DNA of 8,321 nt from a virus (IMGVR_UViG_3300029249_000159), one strand, 5' to 3'; shown: positions 1,818 to 8,321, counted from the stretch's first letter. Program-made: numbers and translations. The notes: generated by a model not told the origin, from the letters alone.

Positions 1818-2965
1818 TGTGTAAGTTCACAGAGATATTGCAATTGCCTCCGGATAAGTAAGGGGAGATTGCACTATGCAAATGCAGCATCTGATGGTTG
1901 GCTATCCTAAGTACTACCAAACGGCCGATTATGCGTTGAGGCTTTCAGTGATGGCTGATATAGCAACAATGAGAATGAAGGCTCTGCACTTCTGGGATAA
2001 ACACGGTATTTCTGCAGCTTCTGAAGCCTTTGGCGTGTCCTGCCGCACGCTTTACTGGTGGCGTCAGTTACTGAACAAGGAAGGACCTGAGGGGCTAATC
2101 CCGCACAGTAAGGCACCTCTGGTGCGACGAAAAAAACACTGGCATCCCGATGTGCTGAAAGAGATTCGACGCCTCAGGACAGAGCTGCCGAACCTCGGTA
2201 AAGAGCAGATTTTTGTTCGCCTGAAGCCCTGGTGCGAACAGCGCTATCTGGCCTGTCCGAGTGTTTCCACCATCGGCAGAATGATCGCTGCCGCACATGA
2301 TAAAATGCGGATGATACCTGTGCGTCTGGGATCGCGGGGGAAGGCACTGCTTGTCAAAAAGCGGTCTGCCAAACCCCGCAGGCCAAAGCACTACCGCCCG
2401 GTAAAGACAGGTGAGCTCATTGGGATGGACGCCATTGAGCTCAGAATGGGCGAACTGCGTCGCTATGTCATCACCATGATCGACGAATGCAGCAATTACG
2501 CGCTGGCGCTGGCTGTGCCGTCACTCAACAGTGATATCGTCAATCACTTCTTCAGCCGCGCAGCCCGGTTGTTCCCGGTCGGTATCAGCCAGATAATCAC
2601 AGATAACGGAAAAGAGTTCCTGGGAAACTTCGACAAAACGCTGCAGGAAGCCGCTATCAAACACCTCTGGACCTATCCCTACACGCCAAAAATGAACGCT
2701 ATCTGTGAACGTTTTAACCGGACGTTAAGAGAGCAGTTTATTGAATTTAATGAGATTTTACTCTTTGAAGATCTGGCGCTATTTAACCAGAAGCTGGCGG
2801 AATATCTGGTGCTGTATAACAGCAAAAGACCCCACAAGGCGCTCGCACTAATGACGCCCGTGGAATATATTTTAAAAGAGAATAAAAATTGCAATATGTG
2901 GTGGACCCATACATCTCCTTGCCTTTCGGCACGTAAGAGGCTAACCTACATGTGTCTAGCATGAA
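1818..2965 (+). mobile_element. Putative IS481-family-like insertion sequence (ends not resolved)
   Basis: Single-ORF transposase with N-terminal HTH and DDE core. A TGTGTAAGTTCACAG motif at 1818 resembles the TGT-initiated terminal repeats of IS481-type elements and a ...CTAACCTACA end lies at 2941-2950, but I could not find a convincing matching inverted repeat or target duplication by eye. Boundaries are approximate. Confidence 0.4.
1876..2964 (+). CDS. DDE transposase / integrase catalytic (rve) domain protein, IS481-family-like (362 aa)
   Basis: ATG start; N-terminal helix-turn-helix-like region (GISAASEAFGVSCRTLYWWRQ); candidate catalytic triad in rve-type spacing: D in IGMDAIE, D in ITDNGKEF, E in NAICERFNRTLREQF, followed by the conserved K/R-rich segment YNSKRPHKAL. 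Single ORF rather than the two-frame IS3 arrangement. Confidence 0.75.
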   Translation: MQMQHLMVGYPKYYQTADYALRLSVMADIATMRMKALHFWDKHGISAASEAFGVSCRTLYWWRQLLNKEGPEGLIPHSKAPLVRRKKHWHPDVLKEIRRLRTELPNLGKEQIFVRLKPWCEQRYLACPSVSTIGRMIAAAHDKMRMIPVRLGSRGKALLVKKRSAKPRRPKHYRPVKTGELIGMDAIELRMGELRRYVITMIDECSNYALALAVPSLNSDIVNHFFSRAARLFPVGISQIITDNGKEFLGNFDKTLQEAAIKHLWTYPYTPKMNAICERFNRTLREQFIEFNEILLFEDLALFNQKLAEYLVLYNSKRPHKALALMTPVEYILKENKNCNMWWTHTSPCLSARKRLTYMCLA

Positions 2966-3487
2966 ATTGGCCTCAGATTAATGTTAAGCGTCTTGCAGGA
3001 CGCGTAATGTTAACTGGGGCTTTTCTCTATCTGCCGTTGGTGTTCATGCCTGAGGCAGATAGCCTCAAGCACCCGCAGCCATTCTACTTAACTCCCGTTA
3101 CCTCGCCAATATGAAATCAGTCAGAAAGGCGATCCATAAGAACAATAGCAAGACAATAAATCGCCATTACAGCCGTAATAGCCAGCGCACATTTGAGAAC
3201 CAGCACCACAACCTCCTGTATTGGATGTACACCAGTCCTGATGAATATGAGGCTGTCTCGTCAGTGATTCAATGCAACTATTGGGTATAGTTTCTCTGAT
3301 TTTTTCTGTGGAAATGGGGCTCAACCACTAGTCACCACCAGCACTTCTTTTAATACGCAAAGTCCGACACAAGCTAACCTTCTAGTCCGCTTTGAGCGAA
3401 AAGCAGGAGTTCATAGTTTATTACCCCTGTACTGCCTCTGCTTAGGTGGTCATATCCAGTGTGCCATTATCCTGTTAGGGCTCACTA

Positions 3488-6549: not shown

Positions 6550-6957
6550 ATGGATACAAGAACCCTAGGCCAGCGAGTTCTGGCGCGACGAAAAGAATTA
6601 CGCTTAACACAACGAGAAGCTGCGCGCCTCGCTGGAGTTGCTCACGTCACAATTTCACAATGGGAAAGAGACGAAACCCAGCCAGTCGGAAAACGATTGT
6701 TTGCTTTAGCGGATGCTCTGAAGTGCTCACCTACATGGCTAATGTTTGGTGACGAAGACAAGGCACCAGTGCCGGCACAAGAACTTCATGTGGAAACAGA
6801 GCTAACTCCCAACCACAAAGAATTGATCGAATTATTCGATGCTCTTCCATCTTCCGAGCAGGAAGCCTTGCTGTCTGAAATGCGCGCAAGAGTAGAAAAC
6901 TTCAACAAACTCTTCGAAGAAATGCTTAAAGCGCGTAAAAATAAATCAATAAAATAA
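6550..6957 (+). CDS. dicA: HTH XRE-family repressor, DicA-like (135 aa)
   Basis: ATG at 6550; N-terminal HTH (LRLTQREAARLAGVAHVTISQWERDETQP) and a C-terminal tail (SSEQEALLSEMRARVENFNKLFEEMLKAR) that closely resemble my recollection of E. coli DicA, same length. A TAGAAT hexamer sits only 9 nt upstream of the ATG, so the transcript may be leaderless like lambda cI from PRM (inference). Confidence 0.85.
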   Translation: MDTRTLGQRVLARRKELRLTQREAARLAGVAHVTISQWERDETQPVGKRLFALADALKCSPTWLMFGDEDKAPVPAQELHVETELTPNHKELIELFDALPSSEQEALLSEMRARVENFNKLFEEMLKARKNKSIK

Positions 6958-6992: not shown

Positions 6993-7012
6993 TTGTTAGA
7001 TCAATCTAACAA
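6993..7012. promoter_or_regulatory. Operator palindrome upstream of the ydfA-dicF operon
   Basis: Perfect inverted repeat TTGTTAGA-tcaa-TCTAACAA, the same half-site as the intergenic operator at 6483-6500. A degenerate third copy (TGTTAGG-ttat-TCTAAAT) at 7030-7047 lies within the spacer of the candidate promoter. Confidence 0.55.
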
Positions 7013-7019
7013 AAAACAC

Positions 7020-7048
7020 TTGCCTCTTATGTTAGGTTATTCTAAATT
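7020..7048 (+). promoter_or_regulatory. Candidate promoter of the ydfA-dicF-dicB-like operon
   Basis: -35 TTGCCT (7020-7025), 17-bp spacer, -10 TAAATT (7043-7048), flanked and overlapped by the operator palindromes. Confidence 0.35.
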
Positions 7049-7125
7049 ACTTTCCATCAAGACACCGCACGGTGTTCTCAGCAAACAGTTCCGCTACCCC
7101 GGCGTTAAGGGGAAATGAGGTCAGC

Positions 7126-7278
7126 ATGGATACTATCGATCTTGGCAACAGCGAATCTCTAGTATGTGCCGTGTTCCCCAACCAAGACGGTACGTTCACC
7201 GCGATGACATATACCAAAAGCAAAACGTTTAAAACCGAATCTGGCGCGCGTTGCTGGTTAGCCAGAAACACTGACTGA
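7126..7278 (+). CDS. ydfA: Small protein, YdfA-like (50 aa)
   Basis: ATG at 7126 with GAGG 5 nt upstream; MDTIDLGNSESLVCAVFPNQDGTFTAMTYTKSKTFKTESGARCWLARNTD. First gene after dicA, as ydfA is in Qin. The track ORF 7072..7278 is a GTG-initiated 5' extension. Confidence 0.6.
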   Translation: MDTIDLGNSESLVCAVFPNQDGTFTAMTYTKSKTFKTESGARCWLARNTD

Positions 7279-7289
7279 TGAGGCTGACG

Positions 7290-7655
7290 ATGGAATTTAA
7301 AGATTTACCGTCTGATGTACAGAAAACAGCAGCTCATACATTGCATTCTGTGCTGCGAGAAATCGGGAAAGATATTGCAAGCGAGCCAGCAAAAGATCTG
7401 GCCCGGAAAATCAAGACCGCTTTCGTTGAGCTTTATAATGTTGGCACTGACTCTGAAACTGTCGAGACCAAGACCGTAAGTTCACCAATATTCTCACTTG
7501 AGCCAAGCGTATTATCAGGTGAAATATGCACCGAGATTTCCAGCGAACTGCTTCCGGTAATACGAGAAGCAATTTGCCGTCGCGGTTTGGATGGAAGTTA
7601 CGATCATGACGTCCTGCAAGTTCTCAGGACAATGGTGACGTCACTGGGGATTTGA
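7290..7655 (+). CDS. Hypothetical protein (121 aa; 125 aa if started at 7278)
   Basis: ATG at 7290 with GAGG 5 nt upstream (MEFKDLPSDVQKTAAHTLHSVLREIGK...). An alternative ATG at 7278 overlaps the ydfA stop (ATGA). No family recognised; occupies the slot where Qin has ydfB/ydfC. Confidence 0.5.
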   Translation: MEFKDLPSDVQKTAAHTLHSVLREIGKDIASEPAKDLARKIKTAFVELYNVGTDSETVETKTVSSPIFSLEPSVLSGEICTEISSELLPVIREAICRRGLDGSYDHDVLQVLRTMVTSLGI

Positions 7656-7824
7656 TCCCTGCGTCCTCTAACCTTTTGATATAGCGGTCCTCCAAGAAGC
7701 GGTAAATTTTGTCGAAATCATCTTTCCCCTCTGGTTTATTCAGAGGATTACAGGACCCGTAAGTAGCGGCATACATTTCAACCGTTTTATCAAAAATATA
7801 AGAGACAAATTCTTCTTTAGTCAT
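7624..7824 (-). CDS. Hypothetical small protein (66 aa), antisense to the operon
   Basis: ATG at 7822-7824 with AAGGAAA 6 nt upstream (MTKEEFVSYIFDKTVEMYAATYGSCNPLNKPEGKDDFDKIYRFLEDRYIKRLEDAGIK...). The track ORF starts further upstream without a comparable RBS. Its 3' end overlaps the 3' end of the 121-aa gene by 32 nt (convergent); local sequence is AT-rich by eye. Confidence 0.45.
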   Translation of the reverse strand: MTKEEFVSYIFDKTVEMYAATYGSCNPLNKPEGKDDFDKIYRFLEDRYIKRLEDAGIKSPVTSPLS

Positions 7825-8089
7825 ATAGATTTCCTTCTTGGTTATTCGGGATAAGAAGGATACCACCTCGCCTGACGTGGTTAAAAGCAGGCACACAACA
7901 CGAAAGCGCACGGCGAAGTTCGTCTCACTGTACGGTGTCGTTAAATTTAATTCGACCGTGCGCTTCCGGTTGTGGCAACCCGCGAAATGGCGCGGCGGTA
8001 AGTATGGCGGGGTTATTCCTTCCCCGTTGAGGACACCGGGTTGTCAGGTTGACCATACGCTTAAGTGACACCCCTGCCACAACACTCCA

Positions 8090-8147
8090 TGTTGATTGGT
8101 ACCTTTGGCGGCATCAGTTTCATTGCTGGCTGATGTCCGCCCTTTTT
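8090..8147 (+). ncRNA. dicF: DicF-like small regulatory RNA
   Basis: Positioned between the operon ORFs and the downstream gene start as in Qin. Contains the TTTGGCGG...ATCAGTTT core (8104-8119) and a terminal GGCGG/CCGCC stem plus CCCTTTTT (8137-8147) that match my recollection of E. coli DicF, with differences in the loop region. The 5' end is a guess (RNase processing in K-12). Confidence 0.6.
8107..8147 (+). terminator. Intrinsic terminator forming the 3' end of the DicF-like RNA
   Basis: Stem GGCGG (8107-8111) pairing with CCGCC (8137-8141) enclosing an internal structured loop, followed by CTTTTT (8142-8147). Confidence 0.55.
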
Positions 8148-8315
8148 AAAGTGAATTTTGTGATGCGGTGAATGCGGCTGAGCGCACGCGGAACAGTTAA
8201 AACCAAAAACAGTGTTATGGGTGGATTCTCTGTATCCGGCGTTAATTGTTAACTGGTTAACGTCACCTGGAGGCACCAGGCACTGCATCACAAAATTCAT
8301 TATTGAGGACGCGAT

Positions 8316-8321
8316 AATGAA
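8316..8321 (+). CDS. Start of a downstream gene (5'-partial view; DicB-like by position)
   Basis: ATG at 8316 with GAGGA 6 nt upstream (8305-8309); only ATGAA is inside the window, consistent with a start such as Met-Lys. The DicB identity is inferred from synteny alone. Confidence 0.3.

What the first reader, a model, noticed from the sequence alone, without database searches (positions are those of the whole stretch)
7290..7824. Convergent, 3'-overlapping gene pair (121 aa plus, 66 aa minus) between ydfA and DicF
Where K-12 Qin has ydfB and ydfC, this window has a different 121-aa ORF and an antisense 66-aa ORF with its own strong RBS; their 3' ends overlap by 32 nt. An antisense gene inside a repressor-controlled early operon is unusual and could be a moron with its own regulation, or a two-component module of unknown function (toxin/antitoxin-like or anti-defence).
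Basis: partly seen in the sequence, partly recalled or inferred. Interest (0 to 1): 0.5.

Follow-up and report, generated by a model that had tools for sequence, protein, structure and literature searches.

The report
Prophage small-gene pair with antisense promoter
Two overlapping, facing small genes in a Qin-type E. coli prophage (also in BL21(DE3)) are both real and travel together, the antisense one behind a promoter-like element shared by many prophages, but what they do is unknown.

Summary
A 121-aa ORF (A, + 7290..7655) and a 66-aa ORF (B, - 7624..7824) overlap by 32 nt and replace K-12 ydfB/ydfC between ydfA and a variant DicF. RefSeq annotates both as hypothetical proteins, including in BL21(DE3). 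Both have PHROG families of unknown function.

B is under purifying selection: dN/dS is 0.11-0.25, and synonymous sites are saturated against Cedecea.

B sits about 34 nt behind a conserved ~40-nt promoter-like element (TTAACC, 16 nt, TGgTATCCT). In other lambdoid prophages the same element precedes at least 10 different small ORF types. This makes it a swappable antisense gene slot. Lambda sieB is a precedent for an antisense gene in an early operon.

Only the C-terminal ~47 aa of A always accompanies B. This holds in five independent contexts, with three different N-terminal architectures. That supports a functional pair.

No homology or fold match supports a toxin-antitoxin, defence or anti-defence role.

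My best reading, which is inferred, is a lysogen-phase protein B and an early-lytic partner domain A-C, with mutually exclusive expression. Transcription was not tested.

The parts
7126..7278 (+). ydfA homologue (DUF1391). It is the first gene of the DicA-repressed early (dicB-type) operon and the left conserved flank of the cassette.
   Evidence: Pfam DUF1391, E 1.6e-25. PGAP annotation. Aligned to K-12 ydfA.
7290..7655 (+). Gene A, 121 aa, sense with the early operon. It is acidic and soluble. It consists of an N-domain, a disordered linker and a C-domain.
   Evidence: ORF. PGAP CDS WP_024165664. phrog_33007, E 8.5e-82. AF2 domain layout. Selection by region.
7290..7445 (+). A N-domain (aa 1-52, MEFKDLP...ELY), a predicted helical hairpin. 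It also occurs alone (~62 aa) or fused to unrelated C-termini.
   Evidence: Matches to phrog_9419, 1363, 2151 and 6937 over residues 1-55 only. Alignment A2. Stand-alone forms. pLDDT about 78. dN/dS 0.1-0.35.
7446..7511 (+). A linker, predicted disordered and fast-evolving.
   Evidence: pLDDT below 50 for residues 52-84. dN/dS about 0.6-0.85 for the tested block aa 53-84, window 7446..7541, in the more divergent pairs.
7512..7652 (+). A C-domain (aa 75-121, LSGEICTEISSELLPVIREAICRRGLDGSYDHDVLQVLRTMVTSLGI). This is the only part of A that always accompanies B.
   Evidence: Cedecea encodes only this domain next to B. Against Cedecea, dS is saturated, dN is 0.26, and 24 of 41 differences are at third codon positions. 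L259 partner: hhalign probability 95%, E 3.7e-8, with a different N-terminus. All 62 C-domain loci in IMG/VR carry B or a remnant of it.
7624..7824 (-). Gene B, 66 aa, antisense to the early operon. It is an acidic, soluble, predicted two-helix hairpin (helices 3-22 and 31-54) with a floppy C-terminal tail.
   Evidence: ORF. PGAP CDS WP_024242775. phrog_34441, E 1.3e-49. dN/dS 0.11-0.25 and third-position excess. AF2 pLDDT 76. pI 5.0 and no membrane segment.
7624..7655 (.). The 32-nt overlap of the two coding 3' ends. It encodes B's low-confidence tail and A's last 10 codons.
   Evidence: The same 32 nt are kept in nearly all close relatives. In distant pairs the overlap is 56 nt (L259), 35 nt (L260) and 39 nt (SfII).
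7832..7836 (-). Shine-Dalgarno sequence AAGGA of B, 7 nt before the ATG.
   Evidence: Read. AAGGAAAT is conserved in relatives and before the other cargo ORFs.
7858..7896 (-). Conserved promoter-like element TGTGCCTGCTTTTAACCACGTCAGGCGAGGTGGTATCCT. The -35 TTAACC is at 7885..7880, the spacer is 16 nt, the extended -10 TGgTATCCT is at 7866..7858, and the predicted start is near 7851.
   Evidence: Read. A 37-40-nt core is 97-100% identical in the sampled short-match records, and roughly 1,700 E. coli records have only such a short match. Also present in SfII, SfV, phiES15 and EDL933. Both flanks vary. In 192 copies it is followed 31-37 nt later by SD+ATG of 12 or more distinct small ORF types. 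Function as a promoter is inferred, not shown. The generic promoter scan (threshold 9 of 12) did not list it.
7279..7896 (.). Mosaic cassette that replaces ydfB/ydfC of K-12 Qin.
   Evidence: Three-way alignment with K-12 and BL21(DE3). 392 of 5426 complete E. coli genomes carry at least 80% of it. Phage mEp460_ev081 carries it.
8094..8142 (+). DicF-like sRNA variant downstream. In K-12, DicF is made by processing of the dicBp read-through transcript, so the same transcript here must cross gene B in antisense.
   Evidence: Rfam RF00039, 38.8 bits, E 1.5e-6. Terminator-like hairpin at 8110..8137. K-12 processing described in PMC10448788.

Best explanation
This is a mobile two-gene cassette of lambdoid prophages.

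Gene B (66 aa, minus strand) is an autonomous accessory gene of the moron type. It sits in a conserved 'antisense slot': a ~40-nt sigma-70-like element (TTAACC, 16 nt, TGgTATCCT) plus a canonical Shine-Dalgarno sequence. In other prophages this slot carries other small genes. B is read against the DicA-repressed early transcript (dicBp -> ydfA -> A -> DicF -> dicB). It is therefore most likely made in the lysogen, while early transcription is off.

Gene A belongs to the early transcript. Only its C-terminal ~47-aa helical domain (A-C) is always linked to B. I therefore infer that A-C and B act on each other as proteins. A-C would be the lytic-phase partner of the lysogen-phase protein B. Either A-C neutralises B (self-immunity, as esc does for sieB), or B buffers leaky A.

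The facing, overlapping layout would make the two expression states mutually exclusive. Early read-through collides with B transcription, and it forms a duplex with the whole B mRNA, which RNase III could cut.

Shown: both genes are real, they are linked at domain level, and the slot element is conserved with changing cargo. Inferred: promoter activity, timing of expression, protein-protein contact and the biological role.
For: B is coding: dN/dS is 0.11-0.25 in the non-overlapping codons, dS is saturated against Cedecea with dN 0.17-0.21, and 26-30 of 46-53 differences fall at third positions. Its length is exactly 66 codons in nearly all close relatives.

A-C is coding.

The pair is kept in five independent contexts. 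These are Qin/ydfA, next to an S24 repressor with a 137-aa A (L007), next to an HTH_19 repressor (L008), between cro and a cII-like gene with A-C alone (Cedecea), and L259, where B is 55% identical and the partner's C-terminus matches A-C (hhalign 95%, E 3.7e-8) behind an unrelated N-terminus. A sixth candidate is SfII: SfII_36 matches the B profile (92.5%, E 4.8e-7) and faces an unannotated 68-aa ORF with weak A-C similarity (E 6.9e-4).

In every case the partner ORF is sense and B is antisense to the early lytic operon.

The element is conserved between variable flanks and varying cargo. The extended -10 is kept even in Cedecea and L259. L260 has a different upstream region containing a perfect TATAAT.

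In K-12 the early transcript runs from dicBp through to DicF (PMC10448788). No terminator-like site was found between A and DicF.
Against: No transcription, translation or interaction data exist for either gene.

The element scores only 4/6 + 4/6 plus TG, and the generic scan missed it. SfV's authors annotated the same place as a terminator.

Physical overlap alone forces co-inheritance of B with the last 10 codons of A. Most sampled loci are near-identical, so the number of independent observations is small (about 5).

The A-C model is low-confidence (pLDDT about 50).

No intrinsic terminator for B was found.

The partners in L260 and SfII are not significantly or only weakly similar to A-C.

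The other cargo types in the slot do not obviously come with a partner.
Confidence: 0.45

Rival explanations
1. B is an independent accessory gene and A is an unrelated early gene. B is a stand-alone lysogen-expressed small protein, for example for exclusion or host modulation. A is an ordinary early gene. They overlap only because phage genomes are compact, and they travel together only because they are physically interleaved.
For: The same slot carries at least 10 other cargo ORF types, most without an evident conserved partner. Lambda sieB likewise abuts N with no functional link to N. Most pair-bearing loci are near-identical. The partner in L260 shows no significant similarity to A-C.
Against: Overlap explains linkage of only 10 codons. 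Yet about 47 codons of A-C are kept under protein-level selection in Cedecea, with a new start codon and without the N-domain. In L259 they are kept behind an unrelated N-terminus.
Confidence: 0.3
2. The RNA is the main actor. The minus-strand transcript works as an antisense RNA. It could act as a brake on leaky dicBp transcription of the toxic DicF/DicB, through transcriptional interference and RNase III cutting. Or it could exclude superinfecting phages that carry the same early sequence. In this reading the peptide is secondary.
For: The whole B mRNA is complementary to the early polycistronic transcript that must yield DicF and DicB. A prophage antisense RNA, STnc6030, mediates superinfection exclusion (PMC7067206). 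The region just downstream of B's stop (7542..7622) has unusually few synonymous changes in A among Escherichia-type relatives: dS 0-0.24, mostly about 0.1, against 0.3-1.6 in the flanks of the divergent pairs. The B 3' region folds better than shuffled sequence (z = -2.8).
Against: B's protein sequence is clearly under purifying selection, with saturated synonymous sites against Cedecea. So the protein matters. Covariation in the 3' structure is weak, with 2 compensated pairs of 42. The pair also sits in prophages without dicF/dicB.
Confidence: 0.12
3. The pair is a classical toxin-antitoxin module, either type II-like or type I-like with 3' overlap.
For: The genes are small and facing, their transcripts overlap at the 3' end, and they lie in a prophage. 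This superficially resembles the txpA/RatA-type loci of Bacillus (from my own knowledge). A hok/sok system lies elsewhere in the same prophage.
Against: There is no match to any toxin or antitoxin family. Neither protein has a hydrophobic or membrane segment. The 'antisense' partner is itself a conserved protein-coding gene. The genes are not co-directional as in a type II operon.
Confidence: 0.06
4. The 66-aa ORF is not expressed. It would be an annotation artefact that stays open by chance, or because it mirrors constraints on the other strand.
For: Many spurious ORFs of this size exist in the window. The mirror frame on the opposite strand also shows a low dN/dS (frame r1). There is no expression evidence.
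Against: No ORF of 30 aa or more lies on the plus strand across 7656..7824, so there is no other-strand gene to mirror. B keeps its start, length, Shine-Dalgarno sequence and upstream element at 71% and 55% identity in other genera and contexts.
Confidence: 0.04

Closest known systems
sieB (with esc) of phage lambda, P22 and Rac
   Same: It is a prophage accessory gene lying antisense inside the repressor-controlled early-left operon and facing the upstream early gene. Lambda sieB is at 34482..35036 (+) and abuts N (-). From my own knowledge, it has its own promoter, is expressed in the lysogen, and has a phage-encoded self-immunity determinant.
   Different: SieB is a ~190-aa membrane protein with no sequence similarity to B. 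esc is an internal product of sieB itself, not a separate facing gene. B is a 66-aa soluble acidic hairpin. An exclusion function is not shown here.
Morons, i.e. prophage accessory loci (Hendrix-type definition; transcriptome signatures in Owen et al. 2020, PMC7067206)
   Same: B is a gene present in some relatives and absent in others. It has its own promoter-like element and lies antisense to lytic genes. That position is described as characteristic of accessory loci.
   Different: No terminator was found for B. The promoter module is shared by many unrelated cargo genes at one fixed slot. The cargo here comes with a conserved facing partner domain.
K-12 Qin ydfB/ydfC segment of the dicBF operon
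   Same: Same position, between ydfA and dicF. Same flanks and same DicA/dicBp control region.
   Different: There is no sequence similarity to YdfB or YdfC. K-12 has no antisense gene and lacks the promoter-like element.
cII/OOP of lambda and the 3'-overlapping type I toxin-antitoxin loci of Bacillus (txpA/RatA, bsrG/SR4)
   Same: Facing transcripts overlap at the 3' end of an early or toxic gene, which allows RNase III-dependent control. OOP is described in PMC7067206. The Bacillus loci are from my own knowledge.
   Different: Here the antisense transcript encodes a conserved protein, and neither product looks like a membrane toxin.
ECs_2282-family zinc-binding protein of O157 prophages, SfII_36, and an unannotated SfV ORF
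   Same: They occupy the same slot behind the same ~40-nt element, on the antisense strand, and are 63-81 aa long. SfII_36 is a remote homologue of B.
   Different: The ECs_2282 family (a zinc ribbon) and the SfV 81-aa ORF are unrelated in sequence to B. Their functions are also unknown.

Membership tests
Moron / prophage accessory gene | Present in some closely related prophages and absent from others, inserted between conserved genes | tested here: met
   The cassette replaces ydfB/ydfC of K-12, and its flanks are conserved. It is present in 392 of 5426 E. coli genomes.
Moron / prophage accessory gene | Own promoter | tested here: inconclusive
   A conserved TTAACC-16-TGgTATCCT element lies at a fixed distance from the start codon, between variable flanks and varying cargo. 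Its activity was not measured, and the generic scan did not list it.
Moron / prophage accessory gene | Own terminator | tested here: not met
   No terminator-like site lies downstream of B on the minus strand. There are only structured hairpins without a U-tract.
Moron / prophage accessory gene | Expressed from the repressed prophage | not testable with these tools
   No usable transcriptome data were found. The BL21(DE3) tiling-array paper has no held supplement.
Type II toxin-antitoxin system | Co-directional two-gene operon with recognisable toxin and antitoxin domains | tested here: not met
   The genes face each other. There are no Pfam, NCBIfam or PADLOC matches.
Type I toxin-antitoxin system (3'-overlap type) | Small hydrophobic toxin peptide | tested here: not met
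   The maximum Kyte-Doolittle 19-residue window is 0.31 for B and 1.02 for A, and both proteins are acidic and soluble.
Type I toxin-antitoxin system (3'-overlap type) | Non-coding antisense RNA antitoxin overlapping the toxin mRNA | tested here: not met
   The antisense transcript carries a protein-coding frame under purifying selection. The facing 3' overlap itself is present.
SieB-type superinfection exclusion | Homology to SieB, or a membrane protein | tested here: not met
   No family match and no membrane segment. Only the position and orientation resemble sieB.
Known anti-phage defence or anti-defence proteins | Match to a curated defence model or to a solved anti-defence fold | tested here: not met
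   PADLOC gave 0 families. PDB sequence profiles gave E of 0.069 or worse. All Foldseek matches against PDB and BFVD have E above 1.
phrog_34441 (B) and phrog_33007 (A) | Full-length profile match | tested here: met
   E 1.3e-49 over 1-66/66 and E 8.5e-82 over 1-121/121. Both families are of unknown function.
Transcription factor + small-ORF antirepressor modules (Silpe et al. 2023, PMC10432266) | Adjacent transcription factor that activates a small antirepressor gene | not tested
   Only the abstract was seen. No DNA-binding domain was detected in A or B. The prophage has a separate antirepressor gene, rem.

The most novel reading that the evidence does not exclude
B and the A C-domain form a previously undescribed two-protein module whose halves are wired to opposite phases of the prophage life cycle. 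B would be a lysogen-expressed small effector, for example one that excludes or aborts incoming phages or buffers leaky early genes. A-C would be its early-lytic neutraliser. The conserved ~40-nt element would mark a general, swappable slot for lysogen-expressed small proteins in the early operons of lambdoid prophages, including the Qin prophage of BL21(DE3).
Probability: 0.25. Interest if true: 0.7.

Novelty: new variant of a known kind. Interest (0 to 1): 0.42.

Why it matters
If the model holds, it would give a function to a gene pair present in about 7% of complete E. coli genomes and in the laboratory strains BL21(DE3) and REL606.

It would also define a recognisable promoter-plus-cargo slot. 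That slot could be used to find lysogen-expressed small proteins in lambdoid prophages, several of which are currently unannotated.

It bears on how the toxic DicF/DicB output of Qin-type prophages is tuned as well. In these strains the early transcript has to run head-on through an antisense gene.

If the model does not hold, the pair is one more moron of unknown function next to an ordinary early gene.

Tried and rejected
Family searches for A and B found nothing above threshold in Pfam, NCBIfam or PADLOC. The only weak hits were chance-level: Dynein_light, Zn_ribbon_16, BrxL_N and histone, with E 0.04-0.23.

PDB sequence-profile searches found nothing significant. Foldseek of both models against PDB, and of B against BFVD, gave only E above 1. 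Two-helix hairpins are not discriminating, and the A model is poor.

The exhaustive profile search with B gave two true distant homologues (P0042, P0044). It also gave four ~1300-1400-aa repeat proteins; the two I inspected (a WD40-repeat protein and an acidic tandem-repeat protein) looked spurious, and I set the other two aside on the same pattern of short repeated partial matches.

The third word-indexed search, with the A N-domain, returned only short fragments and stand-alone forms, with no fusion to a known domain.

The genome-contig scan added only near-identical loci.

Literature searches for the accession numbers, for ECs_2282 and for antisense genes in the dicB operon found nothing on these genes. 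The BL21(DE3) transcriptome paper has no held supplement and does not mention the locus.

A terminator between the two genes was looked for and not found.

An RNA-structure explanation for the conserved 3' region is only weakly supported.

The 95-aa version of B, starting at the GTG at 7911, was rejected. Its extension runs through the promoter-like element, and the flanks upstream of that element differ between loci.

The 125-aa version of A, starting at the ATG at 7278, was rejected. That upstream ATG is not conserved, for example in L068.

Full report
**Context.** The window is the immunity and early region of a Qin/mEp460-type lambdoid prophage. It is 100% identical to E. coli DCE7 record NZ_CP090612. 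Over 7000-8321 it is about 97% identical to the Qin prophage of E. coli B strains, including BL21(DE3) and REL606. The gene order is dicC-like cro (-), dicA-like repressor (+ 6550..6957), ydfA (+ 7126..7278), the two ORFs in question, a DicF-like RNA (8094..8142) and dicB.

**Observation.** A runs + 7290..7655 (121 aa). B runs - 7624..7824 (66 aa). They overlap by 32 nt, and each has a canonical Shine-Dalgarno sequence 7 nt before its ATG. Alignment with K-12 shows that homology stops just after ydfA and resumes at about 7896-7935. The segment therefore replaces ydfB/ydfC, and it shares no similarity with them. PGAP annotates both ORFs as hypothetical proteins with the same coordinates. The cassette is present at 80% coverage or more in 392 of 5426 complete E. 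coli genomes. It is also in phage mEp460_ev081.

**Are they genes?** ORFs of this size are common by chance in the window, so I tested conservation.

For B, I used the 56 codons that A does not overlap. Nei-Gojobori dN/dS is 0.11-0.25 among Escherichia-type relatives. Against a Cedecea homologue (71% identical protein), synonymous sites are saturated while dN is 0.17-0.21. In those comparisons 26-30 of 46-53 differences lie at third codon positions. Four of the five alternative frames show no consistent purifying pattern. The exception is the mirror frame on the other strand, as expected, and that frame carries no ORF of 30 aa or more here. B keeps exactly 66 codons in nearly all of the roughly 70 close loci examined.

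For A, selection differs by region. The N-domain (aa 1-52) is under purifying selection, with dN/dS 0.1-0.35. A disordered linker evolves almost neutrally, at about 0.6-0.85 in the more divergent pairs. The C-terminal domain is under protein-level selection against Cedecea: dS is saturated, dN is 0.26, and 24 of 41 differences are at third positions.

**Anatomy of the proteins.** B is a soluble, acidic protein (pI 5.0, no membrane segment). It is predicted to be a two-helix hairpin (helices 3-22 and 31-54, mean pLDDT 76) with a low-confidence tail, and the tail is the part encoded in the overlap.

A has three parts. The N-terminal part is a helical hairpin (pLDDT about 78). Residues 52-84 are a disordered linker. 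The C-terminal part is a helical region of low confidence.

The N-domain also matches several other PHROG families of different lengths. It occurs alone (~62 aa) or with unrelated C-termini. A is therefore a fusion of two modules.

**The pair is conserved at the level of a domain.** B homologues are few, and each sits facing, and overlapping, a sense-strand ORF. The contexts are:
- (i) Qin type, after ydfA.
- (ii) L007, directly after an S24-type repressor, with a 137-aa A.
- (iii) L008, after an HTH_19 repressor.
- (iv) Cedecea, between cro and a cII-like gene, that is, in the rightward early operon. Here the facing ORF starts with a new methionine and encodes only the A C-domain (MGKEQVILTGELTIEIAGEVLPVIREAIRRKGLEGDYDHYVMPVIRTMAISLGV). 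Its stop codon is lost, so it reads on through B in antisense.
- (v) L259, where B is 55% identical. The facing 129-aa ORF has an unrelated N-terminus, but its C-terminus matches the A C-domain profile (hhalign probability 95%, E 3.7e-8). The overlap is 56 nt.

A sixth candidate is phage SfII. SfII_36 matches the B profile (probability 92.5%, E 4.8e-7). It faces an unannotated 68-aa ORF with weak similarity to the C-domain (E 6.9e-4, probability 27%), and the overlap is 39 nt.

In L260 (B 42% identical) a 63-aa facing ORF overlaps B by 35 nt, but its similarity to the C-domain is not significant.

In IMG/VR, all 62 loci with the C-domain carry B or a remnant of it. Of these, 56 have full-length B, 4 lack B's first six residues at or near a contig end, and 2 have only a truncated remnant. 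Most of these loci are near-identical, so the real weight lies in the five or six independent contexts.

Overlap alone would link only 10 codons. The retention of about 47 codons, with three different N-terminal architectures, argues for a functional tie between A-C and B.

In every context the partner ORF is sense and B is antisense to the early lytic operon.

**B has its own conserved upstream element.** Immediately upstream of B lies TGTGCCTGCTTTTAACCACGTCAGGCGAGGTGGTATCCT (minus strand, 7896..7858). It reads as -35 TTAACC, a 16-nt spacer and an extended -10 TGgTATCCT. The predicted start is near 7851, which gives a leader of about 27 nt.

A 37-40-nt core of this element is 97-100% identical in the short-match records sampled. 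Roughly 1,700 E. coli records have only such a short match, so most of them lack the cassette. The element also occurs in SfII, SfV, phiES15 and O157 prophages.

The sequence upstream of the element differs between loci: the dicF leader here, ydfC in EDL933, and another sequence in SfII, SfV and L007. The sequence downstream differs too.

I counted 192 copies in the fetched loci. The element is followed 31-37 nt later by SD+ATG of at least 10 different small ORF types:
- B and the SfII_36 type.
- An 81-aa ORF, unannotated in SfV.
- A 106-aa hydrophobic protein, unannotated in FDAARGOS_144.
- The 66-aa ECs_2282-family zinc-ribbon protein of EDL933.
- Several others.

None of these has a known function or a defence-family match.

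The extended -10 survives in Cedecea and L259, where the small inverted repeat inside the element does not. This favours a promoter over a hairpin. SfV's authors annotated the spot as a terminator, but no U-tract follows it. Promoter activity remains an inference, and the generic scan did not list the site.

**Consequences for the early operon.** In K-12, DicF and DicB come from one transcript. [quoted passage not shown] Here no terminator-like site lies between A and DicF. The early transcript must therefore cross the whole of gene B in antisense. The overlap at RNA level is thus the whole B mRNA, not 32 nt.

The stretch just downstream of B's stop (7542..7622) has few synonymous changes in A among Escherichia-type relatives. 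There dS is 0-0.24, mostly about 0.1, against 0.3-1.6 in the flanks of the divergent pairs and 0.3-0.5 in B for the three pairs tested. The B 3' region also folds better than shuffled sequence (z = -2.8). Covariation is weak. I treat this as a hint of an RNA-level constraint, not a result.

**Mechanism.** My best reading is given at 0.45 confidence as a whole. For its parts I put B being a real gene at about 0.9, B having its own promoter at about 0.7, and A-C and B being functionally coupled at about 0.6.

B is a lysogen-phase small protein expressed from a shared antisense slot. A-C is its early-lytic partner. The facing layout makes the two states exclusive, through transcriptional interference and duplex RNA. 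The direction of the relationship is open: A-C may neutralise B, or B may buffer leaky A. The biological role is also open.

The rivals are:
- An unrelated moron plus an ordinary early gene (0.30).
- A mainly RNA-level role (0.12).
- A classical toxin-antitoxin system (0.06).
- A non-expressed ORF (0.04).

**Comparison with known systems.** The closest analogue in position and logic is sieB of lambda, P22 and Rac. In the lambda record sieB lies antisense inside the PL operon and abuts N. Owen et al. describe the antisense position with an own promoter as typical of accessory loci, and they show that a prophage antisense RNA can mediate exclusion (PMC7067206). So an antisense gene in an early operon is not in itself unusual.

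There is no sequence or fold link to SieB, to toxin-antitoxin families or to defence or anti-defence proteins.

Three things are not, to my knowledge or in the searched literature, described. The first is the shared promoter-like slot with changing cargo. The second is the domain-level pairing of B with a facing early gene. The third is any function for either protein.

**Verdict.** The toxin-antitoxin and anti-defence labels are unsupported. I classify it as a new variant of a known kind, a prophage accessory gene antisense in an early operon. It is moderately interesting and easy to test, because BL21(DE3) carries it.

Noticed in passing
window 7858..7896 (-); L073-L076 and about 120 IMG/VR loci (L078 onwards): The ~40-nt element upstream of B is a shared module. 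In other lambdoid prophages it precedes at least 10 different small ORF types at a fixed 31-37-nt distance. This looks like a swappable antisense gene slot. None of the seven cargo types I scanned has a known function.
   Followed up: partly
L073 2261..2506 (-), L074 2156..2362 (+), L076 about 2144..2464 (-): Several ORFs tied to the slot are unannotated in public records. They are an 81-aa antisense ORF in phage SfV, a 68-aa ORF facing SfII_36 in phage SfII, and a 106-aa hydrophobic protein in E. coli FDAARGOS_144.
   Followed up: partly
window 8094..8142 (+): The DicF copy is a variant. Relative to K-12 and BL21 it has an 8-nt deletion before the conserved core and a different stem-loop sequence. 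It scores 38.8 bits, below Rfam's gathering score of 48. Its target range could differ from that of K-12 DicF.
   Followed up: no
window 8154..8294 (+): There is a sub-threshold match to Rfam STnc100 (35.5 bits against a gathering score of 47, E 1e-5) in the leader between DicF and dicB. This stretch is almost invariant between this window, K-12 and BL21.
   Followed up: no
window 7542..7622: Synonymous sites of gene A just downstream of B's stop are unusually conserved among Escherichia-type relatives. The minus-strand RNA here folds better than shuffled sequence (z = -2.8). This may reflect a 3'-UTR or RNA-duplex constraint.
   Followed up: partly
window 1876..2964 (+) and 2908..3074 (-); protein P0040: An IS481-family transposase gene sits next to the hokD/sok locus, and its 3' end overlaps the sok match (RF01794, 111.9 bits). 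In another genome the C-terminus of the same transposase is fused in frame to the sequence just upstream of B (P0040). This suggests that the same IS has inserted into the promoter-like element there.
   Followed up: no
L001 (NZ_CP090612.1, 'plasmid pDCE7-1', 420 kb): The only 100%-identical record is labelled a plasmid. Yet it carries this prophage next to the chromosomal genes rspAB, ynfA-C and speG, as at the K-12 and BL21 Qin site. This could be a misassigned replicon or a very large chromosome-derived element.
   Followed up: no
L005 3568..3897 (-): In the Cedecea prophage the A C-domain ORF has lost its stop codon and reads for 62 more codons straight through gene B on the opposite strand. 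Gene callers did not call this ORF.
   Followed up: partly
L075 1365..1836: In EDL933 a relBE-type toxin-antitoxin pair occupies the position right after the repressor. It is followed by a remnant of the ydfA leader, and then by the slot carrying the zinc-ribbon cargo and ydfC. This stretch of the early operon is highly mosaic.
   Followed up: no
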